From NCBI GenBank assembly GCA_016935715.1, contig JAFGQJ010000087.1, positions 1 to 34,383 on the forward strand: a stretch of 34,383 nucleotides of DNA. Reading direction: 5' to 3'. Shown piece after piece: positions 24,755 to 34,349 of this stretch. This DNA comes from Spirochaetales bacterium. GTDB taxonomy: Bacteria > Spirochaetota > Spirochaetia > SZUA-6 > DRHE01. The notes beneath the pieces were generated by a model. That model ran no database searches. It saw only the letters and a program-made list of their open reading frames with translations, and was not told the origin of the DNA. Every line of letters starts with the position of its first letter. The first letter of the stretch is position 1. The translations under genes and the position numbers were made by a program.

Positions 24755-25621
24755 TCATGAATCTCCCAGCTCGACCCGGCGGGCTCGCTCCCTGAGGGAA
24801 CGGCTGAAGGAGATCCGCGGAGCCGCCTCCTCGGGCCGGGCCGGGACGGTCATCTCCCTGCCCGTGGCCGGATTGACGATCACGCGGGCCTTGCGGGCCG
24901 AGCGCTTCTTCAGGGACAGCCTGCCGATCTTCCCCAGCGGCACCCGTTCGCCGAGCAGCATCCCGGATTCGATCATGGTGAGGTAGTCACCCACGAGACG
25001 ACGGACCTGTTTCTGGGTCATCCCGTTCTTTCGGGCCAGATAGGCGATGATCGCCCGGCTGTTGAACTGCTCTGGCAGCTCCTGCCCGGCGGAGAGAACG
25101 GTCCGGTTGATCTTCACGAAGCCGTTGGTCAAAAAGATGGTCGCCTCCCGGATGCGCTTCTCCTGCTCCTCCGGCGGAACCTCCCGCGGACAGACGGCGA
25201 TCTTCAGCAGCTTCGAGGTGCTTCGAACCTTGCCGCCGCTGAGCTGCGCTTCGCTGTCCAGCCGCACGTCCCCGGCCAGGCCGCTGCCCTCCATGATCAC
25301 AAGGTCCGGAACATCGGCGCGCAGGGAGATGCTGGCGTACTCCACCTGCCTGCCGGCGCCGGCGAGCGTTCCCAGGCTGATCAGGGATCCGGAGTAGGAA
25401 AGCAGCAGAGCTCCCCGGGGATCATCCCTGGAAAAGGACTCCACCTCCTCCATGTCCAGGGCCCGGATCTGGCCTTCGAACATCCGTTTCTTCTCCAGCC
25501 AGACCATGGCCATCTTCTCGAAGGACTCCTCGGTATCGGGAAGTCCCGAGCTGCGGGTGATCGTCTTCAGGTGGGAACGCACCGTGTCGGACAAACCCGC
25601 GATTTCCTCGTTCATCCTCAC
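24755..25621 (-). CDS. Two-domain protein: unrecognised ~170-aa N-domain ('domain X') fused to a C-terminal HU/IHF (DNABII) DNA-binding domain
   Basis: 288 aa. Residues ~187-281 (nt 24779..25063) read NSRAIIAYLARKNGMTQKQVRRLVGDYLTMIESGMLLGERVPLGKIGRLSLKKRSARKARVIVNPATGREMTVPARPEEAAPRISFSRSLRERA. This is the HU layout: helix-turn-helix body, then a beta-arm with R..NP.TG. The N-domain is paralogous to ORF 26092..26622. ATGA overlap with the FHA gene stop. Confidence 0.7.
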   Translation of the reverse strand: MRMNEEIAGLSDTVRSHLKTITRSSGLPDTEESFEKMAMVWLEKKRMFEGQIRALDMEEVESFSRDDPRGALLLSYSGSLISLGTLAGAGRQVEYASISLRADVPDLVIMEGSGLAGDVRLDSEAQLSGGKVRSTSKLLKIAVCPREVPPEEQEKRIREATIFLTNGFVKINRTVLSAGQELPEQFNSRAIIAYLARKNGMTQKQVRRLVGDYLTMIESGMLLGERVPLGKIGRLSLKKRSARKARVIVNPATGREMTVPARPEEAAPRISFSRSLRERARRVELGDS

Positions 25622-25983
25622 TCCTCCTGTTCGCCTTCCTCGATCCCGTGCTCGGCCAGCCAGGATTTGGCGTTCGGCCAGCGGAAGCGCAGCTGCGTCT
25701 TTCCCAGGGTGATCAGGTAGCCGTCCCTGAGGTTCTTCTGGATGTACTGCTTCTCCTTGACCCGGGTCTTGTTCAGGCTGCCGAGATCCATCATGGTGAA
25801 GTGATCACCCCGGAACACGATCTGGCAGTGCTTGCGGGAAACGTAGGGATCCGGGAGGTGCAGGTCACAGTGAGGATCCCTGCCGATCGTCACGGTCTTG
25901 TGGGCGATGGGGAAGGTGTCTCCCTCCCGCTCGCCGCTGAGGATTTCCAGATAGACTTCCGGCGGGAAAAGCTCCGGCTCCAT
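25618..25983 (-). CDS. Small cytoplasmic FHA-domain protein
   Basis: Track ORF trimmed to Met 14 (MEPELFPPEVYLEIL), with AGGAGG 7 nt upstream. TIGRDPHCDLHLPDPYVSRKHCQIVFRGDHFTMMDLGSLNKTRV has all the FHA pThr-binding positions (GR, SxxH, N). Confidence 0.8.
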   Translation of the reverse strand: MEPELFPPEVYLEILSGEREGDTFPIAHKTVTIGRDPHCDLHLPDPYVSRKHCQIVFRGDHFTMMDLGSLNKTRVKEKQYIQKNLRDGYLITLGKTQLRFRWPNAKSWLAEHGIEEGEQEE

Positions 25984-26091
25984 TGTTTTGCCTCCTGATA
26001 CAAGTCTACTCGATACAGGCAAAGAAACAAGAGAAAATATTCGAAAGGTGCGCTATACTAGTAGCAACGCTAAAGCTACGAGGAGGAACCC
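25984..26091. promoter_or_regulatory. Divergent promoter/operator region of the FHA-kinase cluster
   Basis: 108 bp, noticeably less GC-rich than the flanks. Contains direct repeats GATACA at 25997-26002 and 26012-26017, inverted repeat TTTGCCT (25987-25993) / AGGCAAA (26017-26023), a TATACT -10-like hexamer at 26054-26059, and AGGAGG ribosome-binding sites for both divergent genes. Confidence 0.35.
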
Positions 26092-26622
26092 ATGGGCGAG
26101 TACCTGGATCAAATTCCGGCGGAAGTGCAGGATCATATTCGGCAGATAACCAAATCCTCGGGTTTGCCGGACTCCGAGGAATCCGTGGAAATGATCGCCA
26201 AGGGCTGGCTGGAGAAGAAGGAGCTGTTCGAAAACCAGCTGGAGGAGATGGACATGGAGGAGGTGGAGGAGATGGACCGGGAGGACGAGCAGGGCTGCCT
26301 GGCCATGACCTACTCCGGATCGCTTTTGAACGTCGGTCCGATGATCGAGGGAAGCCGCACCGTCCAGTACGCCAGCATCGGACTGCGCCAGGACGTGCCG
26401 GAAACGGCCAGCAAGGAAGGCTCCAGCCTGGCCAGCGACGTGCAGGTCGGAGAGCCGGTGAGCTTCTCCCCCGGACCCATCCAGAGCTCCTCCCCGATCT
26501 TCAAGATCGCCGTGACCACCGGGGACCTGGAGCCGGAGGAGCAGGAAGAGAGAATCACCAAAGCCACCATGATTCTGGCCGAAGGATTCGTCGAGGTGAA
26601 CAAGGACCTCGATTTGGAGTAG
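26092..26622 (+). CDS. Stand-alone 'domain X' protein, paralogue of the N-domain of 24755..25621
   Basis: 176 aa, with AGGAGG 5 nt upstream of the ATG. A gapless hand alignment to the HU-fusion N-domain gives about 79 identities over ~165 positions (e.g. ITKSSGLPDSEES/ITRSSGLPDTEES, WLEKK, DMEEVE, YSGSL, YASI.LR.DVP, KIAV, PEEQE.RI..AT). Confidence 0.7.
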   Translation: MGEYLDQIPAEVQDHIRQITKSSGLPDSEESVEMIAKGWLEKKELFENQLEEMDMEEVEEMDREDEQGCLAMTYSGSLLNVGPMIEGSRTVQYASIGLRQDVPETASKEGSSLASDVQVGEPVSFSPGPIQSSSPIFKIAVTTGDLEPEEQEERITKATMILAEGFVEVNKDLDLE

Positions 26623-26812
26623 AATCAAACTGATACTGGACGAACTTAGGCGGATCTACGCCCGCAGCGCTCCTCCGGAAGCGGAGGAGCTGCTAGAGGA
26701 AACACTGTCGACCATCGAGGTCCTGGACAACGAGCCTCAAGCCACCCGACCCCGCGACGCTCGGGACAGACCCGGCGGGCTGCTGTACCTGGATCCGGGC
26801 CTCCCCACGATC

Positions 26813-27658
26813 GTGGTACCGGATCTGCATGCCCGCATGGATCTGGTCCTGGCCGTGCTGGCGGAGGGAGCGGAGAGCGGCGCTGCGGCGGTGGACCGGC
26901 TGGCCGCCGGGGAGCTTCAAATTCTCTTTCTGGGTGACGCTTTTCACGCCGAAGGGCGGGCAGCCGCCCGCTGGCAGGCGGCGCTGGAGGAGTTCAAGGG
27001 GGGCTACCGCAAGCACGGCCACATGGATGCCGAGATGAGGGAAAGCCTCGGCGTGATGGAGATGGTGATGGCCCTCAAGCGCCGCTTTCCGCAGCACCTT
27101 CACTTCCTCAAGGGCAACCACGAGAACATCGCCAATGAGCAGGGCGGAGGCAACTATCCCTTCCTCAAGTTCGCCAATGAAGGGTTGATGGTGCGCATCT
27201 ACATGGATCACTTCTATGGTGAGAAGACCCTCGAGGCCTACTCCGAGCTGGAGAAGAGCTTCCCGGTCCTGGCTGTCGGGGGGAACTTCCTCGCCTCCCA
27301 CGCCGAACCGGCGTGGTTCATTCCGAGGGAGGAGGTAATCGAGTACCGCAGGATACCCCAGGTGGTGTACGGGTTGACCTGGACCGACAACGGCGAGGCG
27401 GAGCCGGACAGCGTGGAGCGGATGCTGGAACACTACCTGGGGCCGGAAGCCGGCGCCGACGCCTTCCATTTCGGGGGCCACCGCCCGGTGCGCGGCGGCT
27501 ACAACCTCCGCTCCGGCGGCCGCTACGTTCAGATCCACGATCCGGACCGCTACGTCGTGGCCGTGCTGCCGGCGCTCGTTCCCATCGACCTGGACCGGGA
27601 CATCCGGGAACTGGACCCGGAGGCATACAAGAAACTGATCCTGGAACCTGACCAATGA
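26813..27658 (+). CDS. Divergent calcineurin-like metallophosphoesterase (PPP-like Ser/Thr phosphatase candidate); the true start is probably upstream of the track start
   Basis: Motifs appear in the PPP order: VVPDLHA (D.H), FLGDAFHAEG (GD), LKGNHENI (GNHE), LASHAEP (H), FGGHRPV (GH). The stop overlaps the kinase ATG (ATGA). The GTG at 26813 is the second Val of TIVVPDLHA, and the frame is open back to 26600. Confidence 0.7.
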   Translation: MVPDLHARMDLVLAVLAEGAESGAAAVDRLAAGELQILFLGDAFHAEGRAAARWQAALEEFKGGYRKHGHMDAEMRESLGVMEMVMALKRRFPQHLHFLKGNHENIANEQGGGNYPFLKFANEGLMVRIYMDHFYGEKTLEAYSELEKSFPVLAVGGNFLASHAEPAWFIPREEVIEYRRIPQVVYGLTWTDNGEAEPDSVERMLEHYLGPEAGADAFHFGGHRPVRGGYNLRSGGRYVQIHDPDRYVVAVLPALVPIDLDRDIRELDPEAYKKLILEPDQ

Positions 27659-29577
27659 ACGGCAAACCGAAAAAGTCAGCCGGCACGGGCCGAAAGGTCG
27701 GCAAGTACACGATCCTCTCGAAGATCGCCCAGGGCGGAATGGGTTCGGTGTACAAGGCCAAGCATCCCACCCTGAAGCGTTACGTGCTGCTCAAGAAGCT
27801 CACCCTGAAGGGCGGCCCGCAGTTTACCGAACGATTCCGGCGGGAAGCCCGCATCATGATGGACTTCAAGGACGATCACATCGTACAGGTCTACGATCAC
27901 TTCAAGGAGGGCTCCTCGTACTACATAGCCGAGGAGTTCGTCGACGGCGTGTCCCTCGAGCAGCTGATCAGGCGGGAGCGCTACCTGTCCAACGAAGCCG
28001 CCGCCCTGATCTTCTACGAGGTATGCAGGGGACTGCAGCACGCCCACGAAAAAGGCGTGATCCACAGGGACATGAAGCCGGGCAACATTCTCATCTCCAA
28101 CCAGGGGGAGGTCAAACTGGTCGATTTCGGCATCGCCACTTCCCTCCAGGACAGCGAGGAGGGACTGACCCGGGACGGGATGACCCTGGGCACGCCCTCC
28201 TACATCCCTCCGGAGCAGATCGACAACGCCAAGAGCGTGGACAGGAGAGCCGACATCTATTCCCTGGGGGTGGTGCTCTACGAGATGCTCACCGGCAAGA
28301 CTCCCTTCCCGGGCAGCTTCACGGCGGAGACCATCGCCCTGATTCACAAGGGCAGATACACCCCGCCCAAGAGGCTCAACCCGAAGATCGCACCGGCTCT
28401 GGCGAAGATCGTGGCCAGGTCCATGCGGCCGAACCGGCGCCGGCGCTTCCAGGACCTGCGACAGATCGTCCGCCGCCTGGAGAGGAGGATCAAACGCCGG
28501 GACCCGGCCACGATCAGGAGAGCGCTCAAACGGGTTATCCAGGGCAGGGAGATCGGTGACGTCTACAGGCCCAGGCGCTCCTGGGCGTTCTGGTTGTTCA
28601 CCGGCCTGTTCCTGGCCGCCCTGCTCGCCGCCGGCGGGTACTACCTGTATCTGAAGGGCTACCACTACGAGATCATCCAGCCCGACAGGTACGGGTCTCT
28701 GGTCGTTTCCACCCGGATCCCCGCCTCCTACAAGGACCCGAAGGACATCTACATCGCCTCGGTGCTGTACCGGGAAACCGAAGGGGAGCTGGTACGCATC
28801 GAGGAGCCGGGCCTGCGTTTTCGGGTCCGGGAGATCGCCGAACGGGCAGCGGGGCAGGAAGACAGCTACTTCCTCGAGTCCGAGCGGGTCTACCTGGCCA
28901 CGGGCCGCTACCGGCTGAAGGTGAACCTGGAAGGCCAGCTGCACTGGCGTTCCTTCTTCCTGGGCTCCCGAACCTACCAGAAGCAGCACCTGGACACCGC
29001 TTCCGGGAAGCGCCTGGAGATCCGGCTGGAACAGACACCGCCGCTTCCGCTGGAGGTTCGCTGGGAGGTGAGGGATATCCGCAGCGGTGATGACCTGAGC
29101 GATTCCGCGCTCCTGTCCGTGTTTCTCACCGACCGCTGGGTCCGCTGGAACCCGAGGATCGCCGCGTCCCTGACCACCGGTGCGAGCTATCGGTTCCGGG
29201 TCGAGCATGACGGCTACTACCCCCAAAGCTTCAACCTGCTGATCAAGGCATACCAGCCGCTGCTGCAGCTGGACGCGGAGCTGATCCCCTACCCGGGAAC
29301 GGTTTCGATCGAATCCGATGCGGAGGGGTTGCAGCTCCTGCTCGATGATTCCCCCTCCTATCTCAGCGGCGGCCGGGAGAGGGTCTACCGGTCCCTGGAG
29401 CCGCTGGAAGCGGGAAGCCGGCAGCTGGTCCTGGATCCGGGGGAGTACATTCTGACTGTGAAGAGGGACGATCGCCTGTCCCGCAGCCTGCCGGTTATCG
29501 TCATCTCTGGGCGCACCGTGCGGGTGGACGTCCGCTACGACGGTGCCGCCAGGAAGCTCGAGGTCACGCTGAAATGA
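27655..29577 (+). CDS. Hanks-type Ser/Thr protein kinase with one TM helix and a ~320-aa extracytoplasmic beta-rich (PEGA-like) region
   Basis: 640 aa. Gly-loop IAQGGMGSVY, catalytic Lys in YVLLKKL, HRDMKPGNIL, DFG, GTPSYIPPE. TM helix WAFWLFTGLFLAALLAAGGYYLY. The C-terminal part has PEGA-like strands (GTVSIESDAEGLQLLLDD...LDPGEYILTVKRDD). Confidence 0.9.
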   Translation: MNGKPKKSAGTGRKVGKYTILSKIAQGGMGSVYKAKHPTLKRYVLLKKLTLKGGPQFTERFRREARIMMDFKDDHIVQVYDHFKEGSSYYIAEEFVDGVSLEQLIRRERYLSNEAAALIFYEVCRGLQHAHEKGVIHRDMKPGNILISNQGEVKLVDFGIATSLQDSEEGLTRDGMTLGTPSYIPPEQIDNAKSVDRRADIYSLGVVLYEMLTGKTPFPGSFTAETIALIHKGRYTPPKRLNPKIAPALAKIVARSMRPNRRRRFQDLRQIVRRLERRIKRRDPATIRRALKRVIQGREIGDVYRPRRSWAFWLFTGLFLAALLAAGGYYLYLKGYHYEIIQPDRYGSLVVSTRIPASYKDPKDIYIASVLYRETEGELVRIEEPGLRFRVREIAERAAGQEDSYFLESERVYLATGRYRLKVNLEGQLHWRSFFLGSRTYQKQHLDTASGKRLEIRLEQTPPLPLEVRWEVRDIRSGDDLSDSALLSVFLTDRWVRWNPRIAASLTTGASYRFRVEHDGYYPQSFNLLIKAYQPLLQLDAELIPYPGTVSIESDAEGLQLLLDDSPSYLSGGRERVYRSLEPLEAGSRQLVLDPGEYILTVKRDDRLSRSLPVIVISGRTVRVDVRYDGAARKLEVTLK

Positions 29578-29599
29578 AGGCCAATAACGGGAGGTGTCT

Positions 29600-30496
29600 A
29601 TGAGCACGGGAGTGCGCAGATTGATCTTGCTGTGTCTCGGAATACTGGGCGGGGCGGCTGCCTGGCCGCTGGCCGAGCTGGTCGTGGCCTCTCAGGCCCG
29701 CTTCCCCTCGTACCTGTTTTTCATCGCAGTTCTGGGTGCGGCCGTGGGGATGCTGATGGGCGCGTTTTTCGGGTCCGCCGCGGGGATTTTCGCCCGGGTC
29801 GGATCGAGGATCGTTGCCGGCATGCTCGTCGGCGCCCTCGTCGGCCTGATCGGAGGCCTCGTCGGGCTGCTGATCGGACAGGCGGCGCTGTTCCTGATCG
29901 GCGGCCTGTTTCTCGGTCTCGACTCGTACAGAAGCTTCCAGACGATAGGGCTTCCGATCGCCCGGGCGGTGGGCTGGGCCTTCCTGGGAGTATTCGTCGG
30001 GGCGGCCGAAGGCCTGAGGGCCGGCTCGGGCAAGAAGATCGGCATCGGCCTGATCGGCGGTCTGATCGGCGGTTTGATCGGCGGAGCCGTCCTGGAGTAC
30101 TCCCGCCTGTATCTCCCCCCGGCCCTGCCCTCCCGGCTGATCGGCCTGATCGTTCTGGGGCTGGCCATCGGCCTGTTCTACGGGATCATCGAGCGCAGCA
30201 TGGCCTTCGGAACCCTGAGGGTTCTGAACGGCCGTCTGAAGGGTAAGGAGTTCATCCTCAACGAAGGACGGGTCCGAATCGGCCGCGCCCGGCGGAACCA
30301 GATCACCCTGGAGCCCTATGAGAACCTGGCGGACCGCCAGGCCCAGATCCGCTTCCGCAAGGGGGAAGCGGTGCTGACCAACCTGGAGCCGAAGCATCCG
30401 GTGCTGGTCAACGACCGGCCGGTCACGGAACAGCGCCTCAAGTACGAGGATGTCCTGAAGATCGGCTCGGCCAAGCTTTTCTACCAGTACGAGTAG
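29600..30496 (+). CDS. Polytopic glycine-zipper membrane protein with C-terminal cytoplasmic FHA domain
   Basis: ATG 29600 has GGGAGG 5 nt upstream (the track starts at GTG 29594). About 6 Gly/Ala/Leu-rich TM helices (GMLVGALVGLIGGLVGLLIG, GLIGGLIGGLIGG), then an FHA-like region LRVLNGRLKGKEFILNEGRVRIGRARRNQITLEP....VLVNDRPV. Confidence 0.8.
   Translation: MSTGVRRLILLCLGILGGAAAWPLAELVVASQARFPSYLFFIAVLGAAVGMLMGAFFGSAAGIFARVGSRIVAGMLVGALVGLIGGLVGLLIGQAALFLIGGLFLGLDSYRSFQTIGLPIARAVGWAFLGVFVGAAEGLRAGSGKKIGIGLIGGLIGGLIGGAVLEYSRLYLPPALPSRLIGLIVLGLAIGLFYGIIERSMAFGTLRVLNGRLKGKEFILNEGRVRIGRARRNQITLEPYENLADRQAQIRFRKGEAVLTNLEPKHPVLVNDRPVTEQRLKYEDVLKIGSAKLFYQYE
30050..30085 (+). repeat. 3 x 12-bp in-frame tandem repeat (ctgatcggcggt / ctgatcggcggt / ttgatcggcgga) encoding (LIGG)3
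   Basis: Read directly from the sequence, inside the TM-FHA gene. The first two units are identical and the third has 2 mismatches. Confidence 0.8.
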
Positions 30497-30511
30497 AGGA
30501 GGCTCTGTACC

Positions 30512-31915
30512 ATGAAACGAATAATAACAGCGGCGGCCCTGATCCTGTTCGGCTCTGCGACTCTCTCCGGCTACAACGTACGCCTGTCCCAGATCGATGC
30601 CTCCCGGCTGCTGCTCAGCCAGACCGTTCGGCTGTACGTCAGCGTCACCGACGATCTGGGCGTGCCGGTTGACCGGCTGGAGCAGGGAAGCTTCACGATC
30701 TTCGAGTCCCCCGATGGCCTGGAGTTCCGCAGAATCGAGGGACTGACCGAGTTCAAGCCCCGGGCCGCCTCGGCCGATGGGATCAGCTTCCTGCTTCTCA
30801 TCGACAACTCGGGGAGCATGTACGACACCCTGGACGGGCGTCCCACCGAGGAGGCGGGGCGCATGCGCATCACCCATGCCAGGAACGCGGTGCGCACCTT
30901 CCTGGGCAGCATGACCCAGCCCAGGGACACGGTAGGCCTGGCGTCCTACAATACTTCCTACACCCGGCTGGCCGCCCCCTCGGGGGACAAGGCTCGGCTG
31001 GCCGGCTTCCTCGACGGCATCGAGAGGCCGGACCCGGAGCAGGCTTACACGGAGCTGTACGCAGCCCTGACCCTGGGGGTGGAGGATTTCGAAGGCATCG
31101 GCGGGCGCAGGGCTATCATCATCCTCTCCGACGGAGAGAACTACCCCTACTTCGAACGTTCGGGCAAGCCCCATCCGAGCCACGGGACCAGGACCTACCG
31201 CTACACCGAGCCGATCCAGGCCTGTCAGGAGGCCGGCATCTCGGTGTACGCGGTGAATTTCGCCGCCCAGAAGGATCCCAACCTGGAGGCGATCGCCGTG
31301 GAGACCGGGGGCACCGTGTTCGACGCCCGCAGCCAGGAGGAGCTGGCCCGGGTCTACCAGCGCATCCACGAGCAGGTGGCCGGGGAGTACCTGATCGGCT
31401 ACCGGGCAACCATGGCGCCGGCGGAGCGCAAATTCGTGCGGGTGCAGGTGGAGCAGCAGGGCCGGCTGGATCAGGCCACGCGCTTCTACTTCTCCAGCAC
31501 CGTTTTCGGCCTTCCCCGCCGGCCTCTCAGCGCCCTCCTGATCATCCCCTTCGTGCTGGCCTTCGTTCTGCTCTGGCTGATCTCCCTGCTGAAATTCGAG
31601 AAGAAGAGGGGACCGGCGACCCTTGAGGTGCTCAAGACCAGGGTGGGCCGGGCCCAGACCAGGGTGATGCCCCTGGGCACGGCCAAGACCGTGATCGGCG
31701 GCAGCCGCAGCGCCGACCTGACGATCGTGGGCAACCCGAACGTCAGGGAACGGCACGCCACGGTGGTATACGACGCCAAGAAAAAGGCCTATACGGTGGT
31801 GGGTTCGGGGGACCTGACGGTCAACAACCGGCCGGTGAAGACCAAGGTGCTCGAGCCGGGGGATGTGATCGACGTGGGCGGGGCCACCATCGTGTTCGAC
31901 GACGGGGAGGTGTAG
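30512..31915 (+). CDS. Signal peptide, extracytoplasmic vWA domain, TM helix and cytoplasmic FHA domain protein
   Basis: 467 aa. Signal MKRIITAAALILFGSATLSG. MIDAS motif LLLIDNSGSM with downstream ...IILSDGEN. TM helix LSALLIIPFVLAFVLLWLISLL. C-terminal FHA-like region TVIGGSRSADLTIVGNPNVRERHATVVYD....LTVNNRPV. Confidence 0.85.
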   Translation: MKRIITAAALILFGSATLSGYNVRLSQIDASRLLLSQTVRLYVSVTDDLGVPVDRLEQGSFTIFESPDGLEFRRIEGLTEFKPRAASADGISFLLLIDNSGSMYDTLDGRPTEEAGRMRITHARNAVRTFLGSMTQPRDTVGLASYNTSYTRLAAPSGDKARLAGFLDGIERPDPEQAYTELYAALTLGVEDFEGIGGRRAIIILSDGENYPYFERSGKPHPSHGTRTYRYTEPIQACQEAGISVYAVNFAAQKDPNLEAIAVETGGTVFDARSQEELARVYQRIHEQVAGEYLIGYRATMAPAERKFVRVQVEQQGRLDQATRFYFSSTVFGLPRRPLSALLIIPFVLAFVLLWLISLLKFEKKRGPATLEVLKTRVGRAQTRVMPLGTAKTVIGGSRSADLTIVGNPNVRERHATVVYDAKKKAYTVVGSGDLTVNNRPVKTKVLEPGDVIDVGGATIVFDDGEV

Positions 31916-31924
31916 GCGCCTGGA

Positions 31925-31943
31925 TCGGGTCGAAACGACCCGA
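31925..31943 (+). terminator. Stem-loop tcgggtcg-aaa-cgacccga at the end of the kinase/FHA/vWA operon (no U-tract)
   Basis: Perfect 8-bp GC-rich stem with a 3-nt loop, 10 nt after the vWA-FHA stop. No T-run follows it, so it is not a canonical intrinsic terminator. Confidence 0.3.
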
Positions 31944-31957
31944 CGGAATGCGCATCG

Positions 31958-33031
31958 ATGAACGGCATAAAGACGAACCCAGTACCCGGTTCCGGCGGGA
32001 AGCGCTCCGGCCTCTCCTCTGCTGCCCGGATCCTAACCACCACGGTCGGTTCCTTTCCCTACCCGGCCTGGCTGGCCGCCATGCCCAGCGAGCAGTCCCT
32101 CATGGACGCAACCAGGGTGGTGGTGGACATCCAGAGACAGGCGGGCATCGACCTGCCCACCGACGGGGAGCTGTACCGCTTCGACGTGAACCATCCCGAG
32201 ACCAATGGCATGATCGAGTACTTCATCTCCCCTCTGGCCGGGGTGCGCAGCGCGATCGGCCGCCTCGACGCCCTCGAGTTCCAGCGCAAGCACGGGATGG
32301 GCTTCCGCCGCAAGCCCGCCGGAGTGGTCGAGGCTCCTCTCGGGGAAGGCTCGCTCGACCTGCCGTCCGACTGCGCGCGCTCCGCAGCGGTGGCCGGCAG
32401 CGGCCTCAAGTTCACCGTTACCAGCCCGTACATGCTGGCGCGAACCCTGCTGGACAATCACTACGGGGATTTCGAAGCCCTGCTGATGGACCTGGCCGGC
32501 GTGCTGGCCGCACAGGTTGAGGACCTGGAATGCGCCTGCCTGCAGGTGGACGAGGCCAACCTGCCGGGAAGTCCCGGTGACGGCCCGATGGCCGCCCGGG
32601 CCGTCAACCGCATCCTGGATGCGGTGGGCCGGGGTGTGCCGCAGCGGGCGGTGCACCTGTGCTTCGGCAACTACGGGGGCCAGACCATCCAGAGAGGCAC
32701 CTGGGAGGCGCTGATCGGCTTTCTCAATGAGCTGCACGTGGACCACCTGGTCCTGGAGATGGCCCGTCGTCCGGAAAGCGACCTGGAGGCATTGAAGCAG
32801 ATACGTTCCGACATCAGCCTCGGTCTGGGCGTCATCGACATCAAGGTCAACCAGGTCGAAAGCCCGGAAGAGGTGGCCCGGCGCATCGAGAGGGCCGAGA
32901 AAACCCTGGGGGAGGGGCGCGTGGGCTGGGTGCACCCGGACTGCGGATTCTGGATGCTGCATCGCTCCGTGGCGGAGCGCAAGATCACGGCTCTGGTCCG
33001 GGGCCGGGACCTGTACCTGGGAAGCCCATAG
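31958..33031 (+). CDS. Cobalamin-independent methionine synthase (MetE) C-terminal-domain-like Zn protein
   Basis: 357 aa. LTTTVGSFPYPAWL N-terminus, GIDLPTDGELYR, the His-x-Cys Zn motif AVHLCFGNYG and the C-terminal HPDCGF are typical of the MetE/UROD-like family. Confidence 0.8.
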   Translation: MNGIKTNPVPGSGGKRSGLSSAARILTTTVGSFPYPAWLAAMPSEQSLMDATRVVVDIQRQAGIDLPTDGELYRFDVNHPETNGMIEYFISPLAGVRSAIGRLDALEFQRKHGMGFRRKPAGVVEAPLGEGSLDLPSDCARSAAVAGSGLKFTVTSPYMLARTLLDNHYGDFEALLMDLAGVLAAQVEDLECACLQVDEANLPGSPGDGPMAARAVNRILDAVGRGVPQRAVHLCFGNYGGQTIQRGTWEALIGFLNELHVDHLVLEMARRPESDLEALKQIRSDISLGLGVIDIKVNQVESPEEVARRIERAEKTLGEGRVGWVHPDCGFWMLHRSVAERKITALVRGRDLYLGSP

Positions 33032-34349
33032 CCGCGGCGGAATAATCCCGGAGAACCATGCGGATGCTCGCTTCGATCAGCTCCTCCGGGTCCGTGTTCA
33101 AGCGGCCTTCCCGGATTTCCCGGTAGTGCCTGGGCAGGTACTGGCTGATCAGGGTCAGGGGGATCTCCACCTGCCGCATGTTTTCGAGCAGCAGCTCTAC
33201 CGCGCCTTTGACCATCGGAACCTGCCAGTAGTAGCGGCTGCGGTCCGAAAAGCTGTACTTGCGGGCCAGATAGACCTCCTGCGCGCTGCCGGTATGGTAG
33301 CTCTGCCAGCTCGACGGATTGTCGCTCATCGCCTTTTCCAGGAACAGCTCCAGCCGGGACAGTCTGGCTCGATAGGAGCCTCCCAGAAGCTCCTTCTCCA
33401 TGCTCTCCAGGGCGAACAGACACTCCCGCATGGCGAAGGTCAGGGCAGGTCCCACCTTGAGGACGGCGAACCGGTCCTCGACCAGCTGTCTCAGCAGCCC
33501 CGGCCGCTGATGGTCGGTGGAATGCGCCTCCAGCAGCAGCCCGGTGTGCCTGCGGGCGGCGCTGATCAGCTTCCCCGCCCTGGCGCGCTCGTACGGGTAC
33601 ACGACGTGCTCCCCGAACTCCACCCCGGGCTGCACCACCACGGCGACGACCCGCTGCCACGCCTCCTCCAGACCGCCGGCTTCGAACTCCCGCCGGCACG
33701 AAGCGATGGTCTGCTCGAGCTCCCTCACGTGAGTCACCGCGGCCGCCTCCGCCTGGCTCTGCACCCCTCCCGGAGCGGGAACATCGGTGCCGATCACGTA
33801 GACGGGCGGCGAGCCGCCGCCGAGCTCGAGGCCCGCACGGCGCGAGTCCCGGCAGGCCGCCTCCGCCGCTGCTGCCAGCTGCGCTTCCCGGCGGGCGACG
33901 AGCTCCGGCTCCAGGCCTCCGTGTTCGTCGACGGGATCACCGCCCAGAGGCATGCTCGCATCCAGGTGAATCTTGGCATATCCGGCCTTCACGCAGGAGG
34001 CGACCAGCTCACAGGCCTTCTGCATGGCCTGCCCGGCCGCCTCCCGGCGCCACGGATAAGGCCCGAGATGGTCAGCGCCGAGCATGATCCTCTCCCCTGG
34101 GAAACCTTCCCTGCCGGCGACCGCGAAGACGAAATCCCGAAACCCGGCGGGTTTCATCCCCGTATAGCCGCCGAACTGATTCACCTGATTGACCGTGGAC
34201 TCGACGAGAAACGGCAGCTCATCGGCCCGGGCCTGGGCCATGGCCGCGGCGATCACCCGGGGATGGGCGCTGCAGATCGAGTAGATTCCCCGGGGATCCC
34301 CCCTGTTCTGCGCTTCGATGAGATCGGTGAAAAAATCCAATGTCTTCAT
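32985..34349 (-). CDS. D-tagatose-bisphosphate aldolase class II accessory protein (AgaZ/GatZ/KbaZ family)
   Basis: 454 aa. GIYSICSAHPRVIAAAM...FLVESTVNQVNQFGGYTGMKPAGFRDFV....MLGADHLGPYPW is the GatZ/KbaZ N-terminal signature. Confidence 0.85.
   Translation of the reverse strand: MKTLDFFTDLIEAQNRGDPRGIYSICSAHPRVIAAAMAQARADELPFLVESTVNQVNQFGGYTGMKPAGFRDFVFAVAGREGFPGERIMLGADHLGPYPWRREAAGQAMQKACELVASCVKAGYAKIHLDASMPLGGDPVDEHGGLEPELVARREAQLAAAAEAACRDSRRAGLELGGGSPPVYVIGTDVPAPGGVQSQAEAAAVTHVRELEQTIASCRREFEAGGLEEAWQRVVAVVVQPGVEFGEHVVYPYERARAGKLISAARRHTGLLLEAHSTDHQRPGLLRQLVEDRFAVLKVGPALTFAMRECLFALESMEKELLGGSYRARLSRLELFLEKAMSDNPSSWQSYHTGSAQEVYLARKYSFSDRSRYYWQVPMVKGAVELLLENMRQVEIPLTLISQYLPRHYREIREGRLNTDPEELIEASIRMVLRDYSAAAMGFPGTGPGPGPEP

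What the first reader, a model, noticed from the sequence alone, without database searches (positions are those of the whole stretch)
24755..31943. Seven-gene FHA / Hanks kinase / PPP-like phosphatase / vWA cluster with an HU-fusion output: candidate undescribed phospho-threonine signalling system
Seen in sequence: on the minus strand, a small FHA-only protein (25618..25983) is translationally coupled (ATGA overlap at 25618-25621) to a 288-aa protein whose last ~95 aa are an HU/IHF fold. On the plus strand, 108 bp away, runs a tightly packed five-gene unit. Its members are a paralogue of the HU-fusion N-domain (26092..26622), a divergent calcineurin-like metallophosphatase (to 27658), a Hanks kinase with one TM helix and a ~320-aa outside domain (ATGA overlap at 27655-27658), a polytopic glycine-zipper membrane protein ending in FHA (29600..30496, 22-nt gap), and a signal-peptide-vWA(MIDAS DNSGS)-TM-FHA protein (30512..31915, 15-nt gap). 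A GC-rich hairpin follows. Established knowledge: FHA domains read pThr written by Hanks kinases. Kinase/phosphatase/FHA triads are known from T6SS control (PpkA/PppA/Fha1) and actinobacterial division (PknB/PstP/FhaA), and vWA+FHA+PP2C+kinase neighbourhoods have been noted in comparative-genomics work. Inference: none of the usual client genes (T6SS, FtsW/PBP) is present here. The phosphatase is PPP-like rather than PP2C. Three FHA modules sit in three different topologies. The only recognisable outputs are a nucleoid-protein-like DNA binder and an unknown domain present twice. A plausible model is that extracytoplasmic sensing by the vWA and PEGA-like domains drives Thr phosphorylation, FHA scaffolds assemble at the membrane, and the HU-fusion protein is captured or released to change DNA binding. 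An alternative is that the glycine-zipper membrane protein is a membrane-perturbing effector in a conflict-type system.
Basis: partly seen in the sequence, partly recalled or inferred. Interest (0 to 1): 0.85.

Follow-up and report, generated by a model that had tools for sequence, protein, structure and literature searches.

The report
Spirochaete phospho-threonine signalling gene cluster
A conserved seven-gene cluster, found only in uncultured spirochaetes, links a membrane kinase, a phosphatase, phospho-threonine-binding (FHA) proteins and an outward-facing adhesion-type (vWA) domain to a previously undescribed protein domain that also occurs fused to a DNA-packaging protein; it is a new variant of a known kind of signalling system, and its function is untested.

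Summary
All seven genes are real at essentially the stated coordinates.

**Conservation.** The cluster is co-inherited. Of 49 informative loci from Spirochaetota genomes assembled from metagenomes (MAGs), 46 keep X–kinase–TM-FHA–vWA-FHA in the same order. 39 also keep the phosphatase, 31 have the X-HU gene within 10 kb, and 15 have the small FHA gene. Identities of the genes fall together (r = 0.96–0.99).

**Domain X.**
- It has no Pfam, NCBIfam or PADLOC match and no PDB or BFVD fold match.
- It gives only 192 clusters among 1.84 billion representative proteins.
- It occurs almost only alone (~176 aa) or fused to HU (~290 aa).

**Other components.**
- The phosphatase has a PPP fold (top 50 Foldseek hits all PP5/PP1/PP2A/calcineurin) with a remodelled motif II.
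- Only the small cytosolic FHA keeps the canonical phospho-threonine-binding residues; both membrane FHAs are degenerate.

**Corrections.**
- The phosphatase gene most likely starts at a conserved CTG (26630).
- The X-HU gene most likely starts at ATG 25615. The stated ATGA overlap is really GTGA.

**Interpretation.** The best reading is a self-contained transmembrane Ser/Thr signalling module. X would act as a receiver-like domain and X-HU as the DNA-binding output. This is inferred, not shown.

**Known systems.** It belongs to none of them: no T6SS, PASTA/PBP or MoxR genes are present. It is a new variant of a known kind and moderately interesting.

The parts
24755..25615 (-). g1, X-HU: N-terminal domain X (aa ~1-175) fused to a complete HU/IHF-type DNA-binding domain. 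Likely start ATG 25615; the ORF finder's GTG is at 25621.
   Evidence: Pfam PF00216, E 3e-13. The HU part aligns over its full length to T. maritima HU 1b8z, including the NPxTG arm. Start codon reasoning. The X part is ~45% identical to g3.
25618..25983 (-). g2, small cytosolic FHA protein with canonical phospho-threonine-binding residues; its stop lies 2 nt before the g1 ATG.
   Evidence: Pfam FHA, E 3e-17. GR...SRKH...SLNKT conserved in 23 orthologues. Shine-Dalgarno AGGAGG lies 7 nt before ATG 25983.
25984..26091 (.). 108-bp divergent intergenic region holding both Shine-Dalgarno sites and a -10-like GCTATACT upstream of g3.
   Evidence: Sequence. A GnTATACT element ~25-35 nt upstream of the X start recurs in most related loci. 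It did not pass the two-hexamer promoter scan.
26092..26622 (+). g3, stand-alone domain X (176 aa), first gene of the plus-strand operon and the gene with the highest identity to the window in most loci.
   Evidence: No Pfam, NCBIfam or PADLOC hit. 297 homologues, all unnamed. 192 clusters in 1.84e9 representatives. AF2 model with pLDDT 72 has no PDB or BFVD fold match.
26630..27658 (+). g4, PPP-fold metallophosphatase (342 aa) with a probable CTG start 10 nt after a GGAG that lies inside the last codons of g3.
   Evidence: CTG invariant in 11 relatives; distant orthologues have ATG at the same place. AF2 pLDDT 88, pTM 0.90. Top 50 Foldseek hits are all PP5/PP1/PP2A/calcineurin, E ~1e-10. Motifs PDLHA, GDGFHAEG, GNHE, SHAEP and GGHRP are near-invariant, with their catalytic residues invariant.
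27655..29577 (+). g5, receptor Hanks-type Ser/Thr kinase: kinase domain, one membrane helix (aa ~310-328), and a ~310-aa beta-rich ectodomain that is less conserved.
   Evidence: Pkinase, E 1e-54. Membrane helix. Catalytic K, HRD and DFG and the activation-loop Thr residues are conserved. ATGA overlap with g4. Ectodomain has only a weak CarboxypepD_reg hit.
29600..30496 (+). g6, roughly six-helix glycine-rich membrane protein with a cytoplasmic, degenerate FHA domain.
   Evidence: Hydropathy. FHA E 3e-8 and Yop-YscD_cpl E 9e-13. GR is kept but Ser, His and Asn are replaced in 51 orthologues. Shine-Dalgarno GGGAGG lies 6 nt before the ATG.
30512..31915 (+). g7, signal peptide, extracytoplasmic vWA domain with an intact MIDAS motif, one membrane helix, and a cytoplasmic divergent FHA domain.
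   Evidence: VWA E 1e-11; FHA 22.8 bits against a 20.7 cutoff. Membrane helix at aa 342-360. MIDAS conserved. In the FHA, Ser is replaced by Arg/Lys and Asn by Asp.
31925..31943 (+). GC-rich hairpin (8-bp stem, AAA loop) directly after g7, without a U-tract.
   Evidence: -20.6 kcal/mol for the 47-nt context 31914-31960, z -3.08.

Best explanation
This is a self-contained transmembrane Ser/Thr phospho-signalling module specific to Spirochaetota.

**Sensor.** A membrane complex is formed by three proteins. They are the receptor Hanks kinase (g5), a single-pass protein with an outside vWA/MIDAS domain and an inside FHA-fold domain (g7), and a six-helix membrane protein with an inside FHA-fold domain (g6). 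The two membrane FHA folds probably act as scaffolds rather than canonical pThr readers.

**Reset.** A PPP-fold phosphatase (g4), translationally coupled to the kinase, resets the signal.

**Output.** The family-specific domain X is the cytoplasmic partner, most likely the phospho-acceptor or docking domain. It behaves like a receiver module. It occurs alone (g3), as single-domain response regulators do, and fused to an output, the HU DNA-binding domain (g1). Phosphorylation of X, and/or its binding by the one canonical FHA protein (g2), would change where X-HU sits (membrane or nucleoid) or how it binds DNA.

**Shown:** the domain content, topology, conservation, co-inheritance, phosphatase fold and fusions.
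**Inferred:** that X is the kinase's substrate or partner, that FHA binds it, and that DNA binding is the regulated output.
For: - **Co-inheritance.** 46 of 49 informative loci keep X-STK-TMFHA-vWAFHA in the same order, 39 with the phosphatase and 31 with X-HU within 10 kb. Identities correlate at r = 0.96-0.99. No other gene family is co-conserved, and the flanks are ordinary metabolic genes.
- **Active components.** Kinase catalytic motifs and activation-loop Thr residues are conserved. The phosphatase has a PPP fold with invariant metal ligands and an ATGA overlap with the kinase gene. The MIDAS motif is intact. g2 has a canonical FHA pocket.
- **X as the key element.** It is always present and is the first gene of the operon. 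It has the highest identity to the window among the cluster proteins in most loci, 44-90% across the loci that carry the operon. It occurs almost only as X or X-HU.
- **Link between X and the membrane complex.** P0185 is a g7-type SP-vWA-TM protein in which X replaces the FHA.
- **Link to DNA by two independent routes.** One is the HU fusion with an intact DNA-binding arm. The other is the L053 variant (X-FHA-PPP-STK), whose kinase lacks the membrane part and carries a Lys/Ala/Pro H1-like tail.
- **Candidate acceptor sites.** Ser/Thr residues are conserved in both paralogues: the TYSGSL turn, S23, S31, S95, S134 and T159.
- **Precedents in the literature searched.** Titles found include phosphorylation regulation of D. 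radiodurans HU (PMC9900698), a review of protein phosphorylation in DNA-related processes in bacteria (PMC4754617), and the eukaryotic-like tail of mycobacterial HupB (PMC5676037) (titles and abstract openings only). Phosphorylation also controls complex formation between the FHA protein ArnA and the vWA protein ArnB, with a PPP phosphatase reversing it (PMC7472852 abstract).
Against: - No experiment and no complex model supports X as a substrate or FHA ligand.
- The X fold is unknown (pLDDT 72, no structural neighbour), so X could instead bind a small molecule or be an enzyme.
- The two membrane FHA domains lack canonical pThr-binding residues.
- The only canonical FHA is next to the operon in a minority of loci (15 of 49).
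- X-HU is not adjacent in about a third of loci. Its presence elsewhere in those genomes could not be tested, because the scan patterns do not match X-HU.
- The phosphatase lacks the Asp-Arg of PPP motif II (GDGFHAEG), so its substrate could differ from phosphoproteins.
- The vWA-TM-X fusion is a single protein cluster, and its genomic context could not be retrieved.
Confidence: 0.45

Rival explanations
1. The module controls an envelope or membrane process rather than DNA. The six-helix glycine-rich protein g6 (a transporter, channel or envelope factor) is the regulated client, as MviN/FhaA is in mycobacteria. X is an adaptor for that process, and X-HU merely autoregulates the operon or is a side branch.
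For: g6 and g7 are as tightly co-inherited as the kinase (46 of 49 loci). The membrane part of g6 is as well conserved as its FHA domain, with repeated G(A/S)AEG motifs. X-HU is missing from the neighbourhood in ~1/3 of loci. The membrane FHA folds look like scaffolds.
Against: The g6 membrane domain matches no transporter or enzyme family. No envelope-synthesis gene is co-conserved. The L053 variant drops g6 and g7 entirely, keeps X, FHA, the phosphatase and the kinase, and puts a DNA-binding-type tail on the kinase.
Confidence: 0.2
2. It is a conflict (anti-phage or anti-competitor) system. The vWA and kinase ectodomains sense attack, and the glycine-zipper membrane protein or the HU fusion acts as an abortive-infection effector.
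For: It is a self-contained cassette found in different genomic contexts in distant relatives. One MAG holds a decayed second copy (L065). The kinase ectodomain is less conserved than the kinase domain. vWA/STK/FHA threat-sensing systems exist: Esr (PMC13622651) and the vWA-MoxR systems (PMC7159879).
Against: PADLOC matches only the generic kinase domain. There is no MoxR ATPase, toxin, nuclease or immunity gene. X is absent from viral contigs, plasmids and phages. Close relatives keep the same chromosomal neighbours, and the genes' identities decline together, which indicates vertical descent. No mobile-element genes flank the cluster.
Confidence: 0.1
3. It is a structural tether between nucleoid and membrane, or a chromosome-organisation device. 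X-HU binds DNA constitutively and is anchored to the membrane complex through X, with phosphorylation tuning the anchoring during the cell cycle rather than controlling transcription.
For: HU-type domains bind DNA with little sequence specificity (established knowledge). The vWA-TM-X fusion would place X at the membrane. An H1-like tail sits on the variant kinase.
Against: No segregation or division genes are co-conserved. Extracytoplasmic vWA/MIDAS and kinase ectodomains suggest sensing of external ligands rather than a cell-cycle cue.
Confidence: 0.1
4. The adjacency is fortuitous: unrelated signalling genes merely lie next to each other in this genome.
For: None beyond the general abundance of kinase and FHA genes in bacteria.
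Against: The same order recurs in 46 of 49 informative loci down to 34-45% protein identity, with correlated divergence. Start/stop overlaps and 15-22-nt gaps are present.
Confidence: 0.01

Closest known systems
Sulfolobus acidocaldarius archaellum regulatory network (ArnA FHA / ArnB vWA / ArnC, ArnD Hanks kinases / PP2A)
   Same: It has the same component set: FHA protein, vWA protein, Hanks-type kinase(s) and a PPP-family (not PP2C) phosphatase. Phosphorylation drives formation of FHA-vWA complexes, dephosphorylation dissolves them, and the output is gene expression (PMC7472852 abstract).
   Different: It is archaeal. From prior knowledge, its genes are not one operon, ArnB's vWA domain is cytoplasmic, and ArnA carries a zinc finger. 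Here the vWA domain is extracytoplasmic and fused through a membrane helix to the FHA domain. The kinase is a receptor, and there is no zinc finger. The candidate output is the novel X domain and X-HU.
Type VI secretion threonine-phosphorylation pathway (PpkA / PppA / Fha1)
   Same: A membrane Hanks kinase combined with a periplasmic vWA domain, an opposing phosphatase, and an FHA protein that reads the signal (PMC1262709; the PppA/Fha1 details are from prior knowledge).
   Different: In PpkA the vWA domain is part of the kinase itself. PppA is a PP2C, and the client is the T6SS apparatus. No T6SS gene is present here. The phosphatase has a PPP fold, and the vWA domain sits on a separate FHA protein.
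Deinococcus radiodurans DRA0331-DRA0334 operon (vWA - STK - FHA - PP2C)
   Same: An operon that combines a vWA protein, a Ser/Thr kinase, an FHA protein and a phosphatase. FHA docking modulates the kinase/phosphatase balance (preprint abstract).
   Different: Its phosphatase is a PP2C with its own KI-FHA domain. It has no X domain, no HU fusion and no membrane FHA proteins. It was not compared by sequence here.
Actinobacterial Esr threat-sensing pathway and vWA-MoxR ternary systems
   Same: vWA plus Ser/Thr kinase plus an FHA-containing output protein. The extra domains of that output protein vary and often bind nucleic acids (PMC13622651; PMC7159879).
   Different: Those systems are defined by a MoxR AAA+ ATPase and beta-propeller surface sensors. 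Neither is present or co-conserved here. Here the variable output domain is attached to X, not to FHA.
Mycobacterial FhaA/FhaB-PstP-PknA/PknB division cluster, and phosphorylation of HU-type nucleoid proteins
   Same: A kinase/phosphatase/FHA triad. g2 scores best against the FhaB/FipA model (E 7e-17, below its cutoff). HU-type nucleoid proteins are known phosphorylation targets (D. radiodurans HU, PMC9900698; review PMC4754617). That Ser/Thr kinases phosphorylate mycobacterial HupB is prior knowledge, not read here.
   Different: No PASTA domains, no PP2C and no RodA/PbpA genes are present. HupB carries an H1-like tail rather than an N-terminal X domain.

Membership tests
T6SS threonine-phosphorylation pathway (PpkA/PppA/Fha1) | Embedded in or next to a type VI secretion gene cluster | tested here: not met
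   No other gene family is co-conserved in 65 loci. The window flanks are 2-oxoacid:ferredoxin oxidoreductase, MetE-like and GatZ-like genes.
T6SS threonine-phosphorylation pathway (PpkA/PppA/Fha1) | PP2C-type phosphatase partner | tested here: not met
   g4 hits Metallophos and has a PPP fold. No PP2C domain is found in any cluster protein.
Actinobacterial PknB/PstP/FhaA-FhaB division cluster | PASTA-domain kinase with RodA/FtsW and PBP genes | tested here: not met
   NF033483 (PknB_PASTA_kin) scores 278.9 against a cutoff of 450 and covers only the kinase domain. No PASTA Pfam hit. No RodA or PBP neighbours.
vWA-MoxR ternary systems / Esr pathway | MoxR-family AAA+ ATPase encoded with the vWA protein | tested here: not met
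   None of the seven proteins has an AAA+ domain, and none is co-conserved in the neighbourhood.
Known anti-phage defence systems (PADLOC-DB v2) | Match of the system-specific proteins to PADLOC models | tested here: not met
   Only the generic kinase domain of g5 matches (PD-T4-6, mad6 and similar). The other six proteins give nothing.
Arn-type FHA/vWA/kinase/PPP network | Zinc-finger FHA protein (ArnA) and orthology to ArnA/ArnB | tested here: inconclusive
   No zinc-finger domain is present in any cluster protein. Direct sequence comparison with ArnA/ArnB was not made, as no sequences were at hand. The resemblance is at the level of component types only.
PPP-family Ser/Thr phosphatase (g4) | PPP catalytic fold | tested here: met
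   AF2 model with pLDDT 88 and pTM 0.90. Top 50 Foldseek PDB hits are all PP5/PP1/PP2A/calcineurin, E 8e-11 to 2e-9, TM 0.52-0.68. All 48 profile hits in PDB sequences are PPP enzymes.
PPP-family Ser/Thr phosphatase (g4) | Signature motifs GDxHG, GDxVDRG and GNHE | tested here: inconclusive
   GNHE is invariant. Motif I is PDLHA, with Asp and His kept. Motif II is GDGFHAEG, with the metal-binding Asp kept and the Asp-Arg replaced by invariant His...Glu. The metal ligands are present and the phosphate-binding Arg is not.
HU/IHF DNA-binding proteins (g1 C-terminus) | Full Bac_DNA_binding domain including the beta-arm NPxTG | tested here: met
   PF00216 scores 50.2 bits against a cutoff of 22.4. 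Full-length alignment to HU 1b8z includes VNPATG.
FHA domain as phospho-threonine reader | Conserved Arg (GR), Ser and His (SxxH) and Asn (NG[ST]) of the pThr pocket | tested here: met
   For g2: GR, SRKH and SLNKT are conserved in 23 orthologues.
FHA domain as phospho-threonine reader | The same pocket residues in the two membrane-anchored FHA domains (g6, g7) | tested here: not met
   g6 reads LADRQAQI / NLEPK, so Ser, His and Asn are lost. g7 reads V[RK]E[RQ]HA / GSGD[LI]T, so Ser and Asn are lost. This holds in 51 and 50 orthologues. The fold is still recognised by Pfam.
vWA domain with MIDAS (g7) | DxSxS...T...D metal-ion-dependent adhesion site | tested here: met
   DNSGS, YTELY and SDGEN are conserved at 80-100% in 50 orthologues.
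Hanks-type Ser/Thr kinase (g5) | Gly-rich loop, catalytic Lys, HRD, DFG and an activation loop ending in PE | tested here: met
   Pkinase, E 1e-54. QGGMG, LLKK, HRDxKPxN, DFG and GTPSYxPPE are conserved.
PEGA domain (kinase ectodomain) | Match to the PEGA family | tested here: not met
   No PEGA hit. There is only a sub-threshold CarboxypepD_reg hit (19 bits against a cutoff of 32.3, E 0.0018).

The most novel reading that the evidence does not exclude
Domain X is a new receiver-like domain for Hanks-kinase/FHA signalling. It would be the counterpart of the two-component receiver domain. It occurs alone, fused to HU, or, rarely, fused directly to the vWA membrane sensor. Its phosphorylation-dependent capture at a membrane FHA/vWA/kinase complex would sequester or release a nucleoid-type DNA binder. 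That would give a one-step route from the cell surface to the chromosome that has not been described in bacteria.
Probability: 0.3. Interest if true: 0.7.

Novelty: new variant of a known kind. Interest (0 to 1): 0.5.

Why it matters
Bacterial Ser/Thr kinase pathways mostly lack the dedicated, recognisable output modules that two-component systems have. Here a kinase/phosphatase/FHA/vWA cassette is inherited as a block together with a family-specific domain that is found almost only alone or fused to an HU DNA-binding domain.

If X proves to be the phospho-acceptor or FHA ligand, three things follow:
- It would define a new output domain for phospho-threonine signalling.
- It would give a direct link from surface sensing to a nucleoid protein.
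- It would assign a function to several hundred 'hypothetical' proteins in environmental spirochaetes.

The practical limitation is that all carriers seen so far are uncultured MAGs.

Tried and rejected
**Identifying X**
- Pfam, NCBIfam and PADLOC on X gave nothing.
- A PDB profile search with X gave only a marginal proteasome beta-2 hit (E 0.006). I judged it chance, because the AF2 model shows no Ntn-hydrolase match.
- Foldseek of the X model against PDB (best E 0.23, TM ~0.2) and against BFVD (best E 0.06) found no neighbour. The model has only moderate confidence (pLDDT 72).
- Cluster look-up for source names of X homologues returned only 'hypothetical protein'.
- A profile search of 1.84e9 representatives did not extend X to other architectures beyond X, X-HU, one vWA-TM-X protein and a few fragments or possible chimeras, such as P0263 with GNVR.

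**Testing for mobility or defence**
- Searches for X in viral contigs, plasmids and phages found nothing.

**Other dead ends**
- A metagenome scan to recover the genomic context of the vWA-TM-X fusion P0185 found nothing.
- Lenient Pfam scans of the kinase ectodomain, the g6 membrane domain and the g7 N-terminal region gave only sub-threshold hits.
- I considered a +1 programmed frameshift fusing X to the phosphatase, because g4 is in the +1 frame and has no canonical start. I rejected it in favour of CTG initiation. There is no slippery site at GAG-TAG. The CTG is invariant while its neighbours vary, and distant orthologues have an ATG at the equivalent codon.
- I looked for a conserved operator in the divergent intergenic region. 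Only a -10-like element and clade-specific blocks were seen.
- Literature searches for this cluster in spirochaetes found nothing.

Full report

Yes. The ORF list contains all seven reading frames at the stated coordinates. Pfam gives these domain calls:
- g1 (24755-25621, minus strand): a Bac_DNA_binding (HU/IHF) domain at aa 188-279, E 3e-13.
- g2 (25618-25983, minus strand): FHA, E 3e-17.
- g3 (26092-26622): no family.
- g4 (ending at 27658): Metallophos.
- g5 (27655-29577): Pkinase, E 1e-54.
- g6 (29600-30496): a C-terminal FHA domain.
- g7 (30512-31915): vWA plus a C-terminal FHA domain (22.8 bits against a cutoff of 20.7).

Hydropathy shows one membrane helix in g5, about six in g6 and one in g7. 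The distribution of positive charges puts the kinase and all FHA domains in the cytoplasm and the vWA domain and kinase ectodomain outside.

The ATGA overlap of g4 and g5, the 22-nt and 15-nt gaps, and the GC-rich hairpin after g7 are confirmed. The hairpin spans 31925-31943; the 47-nt stretch containing it folds at -20.6 kcal/mol (z -3.1), and it has no U-tract.

Three details need correction:
- The g2/g1 junction reads GGAGGAG-TGA-GG-ATG. The four-base overlap is GTGA, not ATGA. The better start for g1 is ATG 25615, which has a good Shine-Dalgarno spacing and matches the MxE N-terminus of X.
- The conserved reading frame of g4 extends 61 codons upstream of its first GTG and contains no ATG, GTG or TTG. 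In 11 close relatives a CTG (window 26630-26632) is invariant. It lies 10 nt after a GGAG inside the last codons of g3, while neighbouring bases vary. More distant orthologues have an ATG at the same position. Initiation at CTG is therefore the best reading. Public gene calls for this clade are truncated accordingly.
- 'PEGA-like' for the kinase ectodomain rests only on a sub-threshold CarboxypepD_reg hit.

**2. Is the adjacency meaningful?**

A scan of one genome per species for relatives of X returned 65 loci. Nearly all are from MAGs labelled Spirochaetota (Spirochaetaceae, Spirochaetales, Treponemataceae) from soda-lake sediments, peat, soils and aquifers.

tblastn of the seven window proteins against these loci gave the following counts among the 49 loci that extend at least 6 kb beyond X:
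- 46 have the kinase, the TM-FHA protein and the vWA-FHA protein, in the same order and on the same strand.
- 39 also have the phosphatase. In L054 it has moved downstream to the opposite strand and is still linked.
- 31 have X-HU within 10 kb, either divergent upstream as here or convergent downstream.
- 15 have the small FHA gene.

Protein identities to the window fall in parallel from about 90% to about 35-45% (pairwise r = 0.96-0.99). This indicates co-inheritance.

All-against-all clustering of every ORF in the loci found no further co-conserved family. The window flanks are 2-oxoacid:ferredoxin oxidoreductase subunits, a MetE-like protein and a GatZ/KbaZ-like protein. These neighbours are shared only with the closest relatives. 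The cluster is thus a self-contained five-to-seven-gene module.

**3. The parts**

*Domain X.*
- It has no match in Pfam, NCBIfam or PADLOC. All named homologues are 'hypothetical protein'.
- A profile search of 1.84 billion representative proteins finds only 192 clusters. They have essentially two lengths: ~176 aa (X alone) and ~280-305 aa (X-HU, confirmed by Pfam on examples).
- An AlphaFold model from 17 sequences predicts an alpha/beta domain (pLDDT 72, pTM 0.70). It has no structural neighbour in the PDB or BFVD.
- The two paralogues share the motifs [LM]TYSGSL, YASIxLRxDVP, GP, S[ST]SP and several conserved Ser/Thr residues.
- X has the highest identity to the window among the cluster proteins in most loci and is always the first gene of the operon.

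*Phosphatase (g4).*
- Its motifs PDLHA, GDGFHAEG, GNHE, SHAEP and GGHRP are near-invariant, with their catalytic residues invariant.
- The AlphaFold model is confident (pLDDT 88, pTM 0.90).
- Its top 50 PDB neighbours are all eukaryote-type PPP phosphatases: PP5, PP1, PP2A and calcineurin (E about 1e-10, TM 0.52-0.68). A sequence profile against PDB chains also hits only PPP enzymes.
One caveat is that the Asp-Arg of motif II is replaced by an invariant His...Glu, so substrate chemistry may differ.

*Kinase (g5).* It has all catalytic motifs and conserved activation-loop threonines. Its ectodomain is much less conserved than its kinase domain.

*vWA-FHA protein (g7).* It has an intact, conserved MIDAS motif.

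*FHA domains.* They are not equivalent.
- g2 keeps the canonical Arg, Ser, His and Asn of the phospho-threonine pocket.
- g6 keeps only the Arg.
- g7 keeps the Arg and His but has Arg/Lys in place of the Ser and Asp in place of the Asn.
- g6 matches the Yop-YscD cytoplasmic-domain model better than the FHA model. From prior knowledge, that family is an FHA fold that does not read pThr.
- I therefore treat the two membrane FHA folds as probable scaffolds. This is an inference.

*HU part of g1.* It aligns over its whole length to Thermotoga HU, including the DNA-inserting arm.

**4. Informative variants elsewhere**

- P0185 (701 aa) is a g7-type protein (signal peptide, vWA with DNSGS, membrane helix). 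Its FHA domain is cut off after about 25 residues and replaced by a divergent X domain plus an unknown ~125-aa C-terminal domain. This fusion argues that X works at the cytoplasmic face of the vWA membrane protein, and that X can carry outputs other than HU. It is a single cluster, and I could not recover its genomic context.
- L053 carries a reduced cluster, X-FHA-PPP-kinase, with no g6 or g7. Its kinase has no membrane helix or ectodomain and ends in a ~95-residue Lys/Ala/Pro-rich tail. The tail is of the H1/HupB type; the mycobacterial precedent is the paper titled 'HupB ... with an Indispensable Eukaryotic-Like Tail' (PMC5676037). This gives two independent fusions that connect the pathway to DNA.
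- L065 is a decayed second copy, and L059 is a lone X gene in a MAG labelled Deltaproteobacteria.

**5. How it most likely works**

*Shown:* a co-inherited set of an active-looking receptor kinase, a PPP-fold phosphatase translationally coupled to it, an extracytoplasmic MIDAS-vWA protein and a polytopic protein that each present an FHA fold to the cytoplasm, one canonical FHA reader, and a family-specific domain that is found free or fused to HU.

*Inferred:*
- The three membrane proteins form a sensing complex.
- The kinase phosphorylates itself and X.
- The phosphatase reverses this.
- X acts as a receiver-like module. Free X and X-HU compete for, or are captured and released by, the complex and the g2 FHA protein.
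- The result is altered DNA binding or location of X-HU.

My confidence that this is a dedicated Ser/Thr signalling module is high (about 0.85). That X is its dedicated cytoplasmic partner is moderate (about 0.6). That regulated DNA binding by X-HU is the output is lower (about 0.4). The overall figure given is 0.45.

Rivals are a membrane or envelope client role for g6 (0.2), a conflict system (0.1), a structural nucleoid-membrane tether (0.1) and chance adjacency (about 0.01). The conflict reading lacks support:
- PADLOC matches only the kinase domain.
- X is absent from viral contigs, plasmids and phages.
- There is no MoxR, toxin or immunity gene.
- Inheritance looks vertical.

**6. Comparison with known systems**

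The component list is closest to the Sulfolobus Arn network: the FHA protein ArnA, the vWA protein ArnB, Hanks kinases and the PPP phosphatase PP2A. There, phosphorylation drives FHA-vWA complex formation and PP2A dissolves the complexes (PMC7472852).

It also resembles:
- the T6SS threonine-phosphorylation pathway, in which PpkA carries a vWA domain (PMC1262709);
- the Deinococcus DRA0331-0334 vWA-kinase-FHA-PP2C operon;
- the actinobacterial Esr pathway, whose FHA output protein carries variable domains that often bind nucleic acids (PMC13622651).

Membership in each fails on a defining feature. There are no T6SS genes, no PP2C, no PASTA/RodA/PBP genes, no MoxR ATPase and no zinc finger. Phosphorylation of HU-type proteins has precedent (PMC9900698 and PMC4754617).

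**7. Novelty and score**

The kind of system is known: a kinase/phosphatase/FHA/vWA phospho-threonine module. What is new:
- the lineage-restricted domain X and its HU fusion;
- the split topology of vWA(out)-TM-FHA(in) plus a polytopic FHA protein;
- a remodelled PPP phosphatase;
- the block inheritance in Spirochaetota.

Full-text searches found no description of it. I rate it a new variant of a known kind, with interest 0.5. It is a well-defined, testable candidate for a new output domain in Ser/Thr signalling. It is not startling to a specialist, is known only from uncultured organisms, and has a mechanism that is still inferred.

Noticed in passing
window 26597-26640 (g3/g4 junction): The phosphatase gene has no ATG/GTG/TTG for its first 61 conserved codons. 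A CTG at 26630-26632, 10 nt after a GGAG inside the end of g3, is invariant in 11 related genomes. Distant orthologues use ATG at that position. Public gene calls for this clade are N-terminally truncated (273-318 aa).
   Followed up: yes
window 25613-25621: The g1 start is more likely ATG 25615 (Shine-Dalgarno GGAGGAG 5 nt upstream, N-terminus MNEE matches X) than the GTG at 25621 that overlaps the g2 stop.
   Followed up: yes
L053:9986-13298: A reduced variant of the cluster (X - FHA - PPP - kinase) with no g6 or g7. Its kinase has no membrane helix or ectodomain and ends in a ~95-aa Lys/Ala/Pro-rich H1/HupB-like tail.
   Followed up: partly
protein P0185 (701 aa; no locus retrieved): A g7-type signal peptide-vWA-TM protein whose FHA domain is replaced by a divergent X domain, followed by an unknown ~125-aa C-terminal domain. 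It is a single cluster. Its genomic context was not found in the metagenome scan.
   Followed up: partly
L065:10216-10949: A second, decayed copy of the cluster in a MAG that also has an intact one (L042). Fragments of X, the phosphatase and the kinase are fused into short ORFs.
   Followed up: partly
L059:10001-10531: A lone X gene (47% identical) with none of the other cluster genes within 10 kb, in a MAG labelled Deltaproteobacteria. This could be a binning artefact or a stand-alone use of X.
   Followed up: no
proteins P0166 and P0139 (X family): Some X domains carry 30-70-residue Gly/Pro/Ser/Ala-rich insertions between the SLGP and YASI motifs, so this loop tolerates large disordered inserts.
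   Followed up: no
window 26044-26060 and the equivalent position in most loci: A -10-like element (G)nTATACT lies ~25-35 nt upstream of the X start codon across distant loci. In close relatives a longer block (AGTnTACTC...GCAAAGAAACAAG) next to the g2 start is also conserved. This is a possible promoter or operator.
   Followed up: partly
window 32985-33031: The 3' ends of the MetE-like gene (31958-33031, +) and the GatZ/KbaZ-like gene (32985-34349, -) overlap convergently by 47 nt.
   Followed up: no
L001:7552-8631 and 8 other close relatives: Close relatives carry an extra ~359-aa ORF between the oxidoreductase alpha subunit and X-HU. It is absent from the window, where that interval is only ~150 bp.
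   Followed up: no
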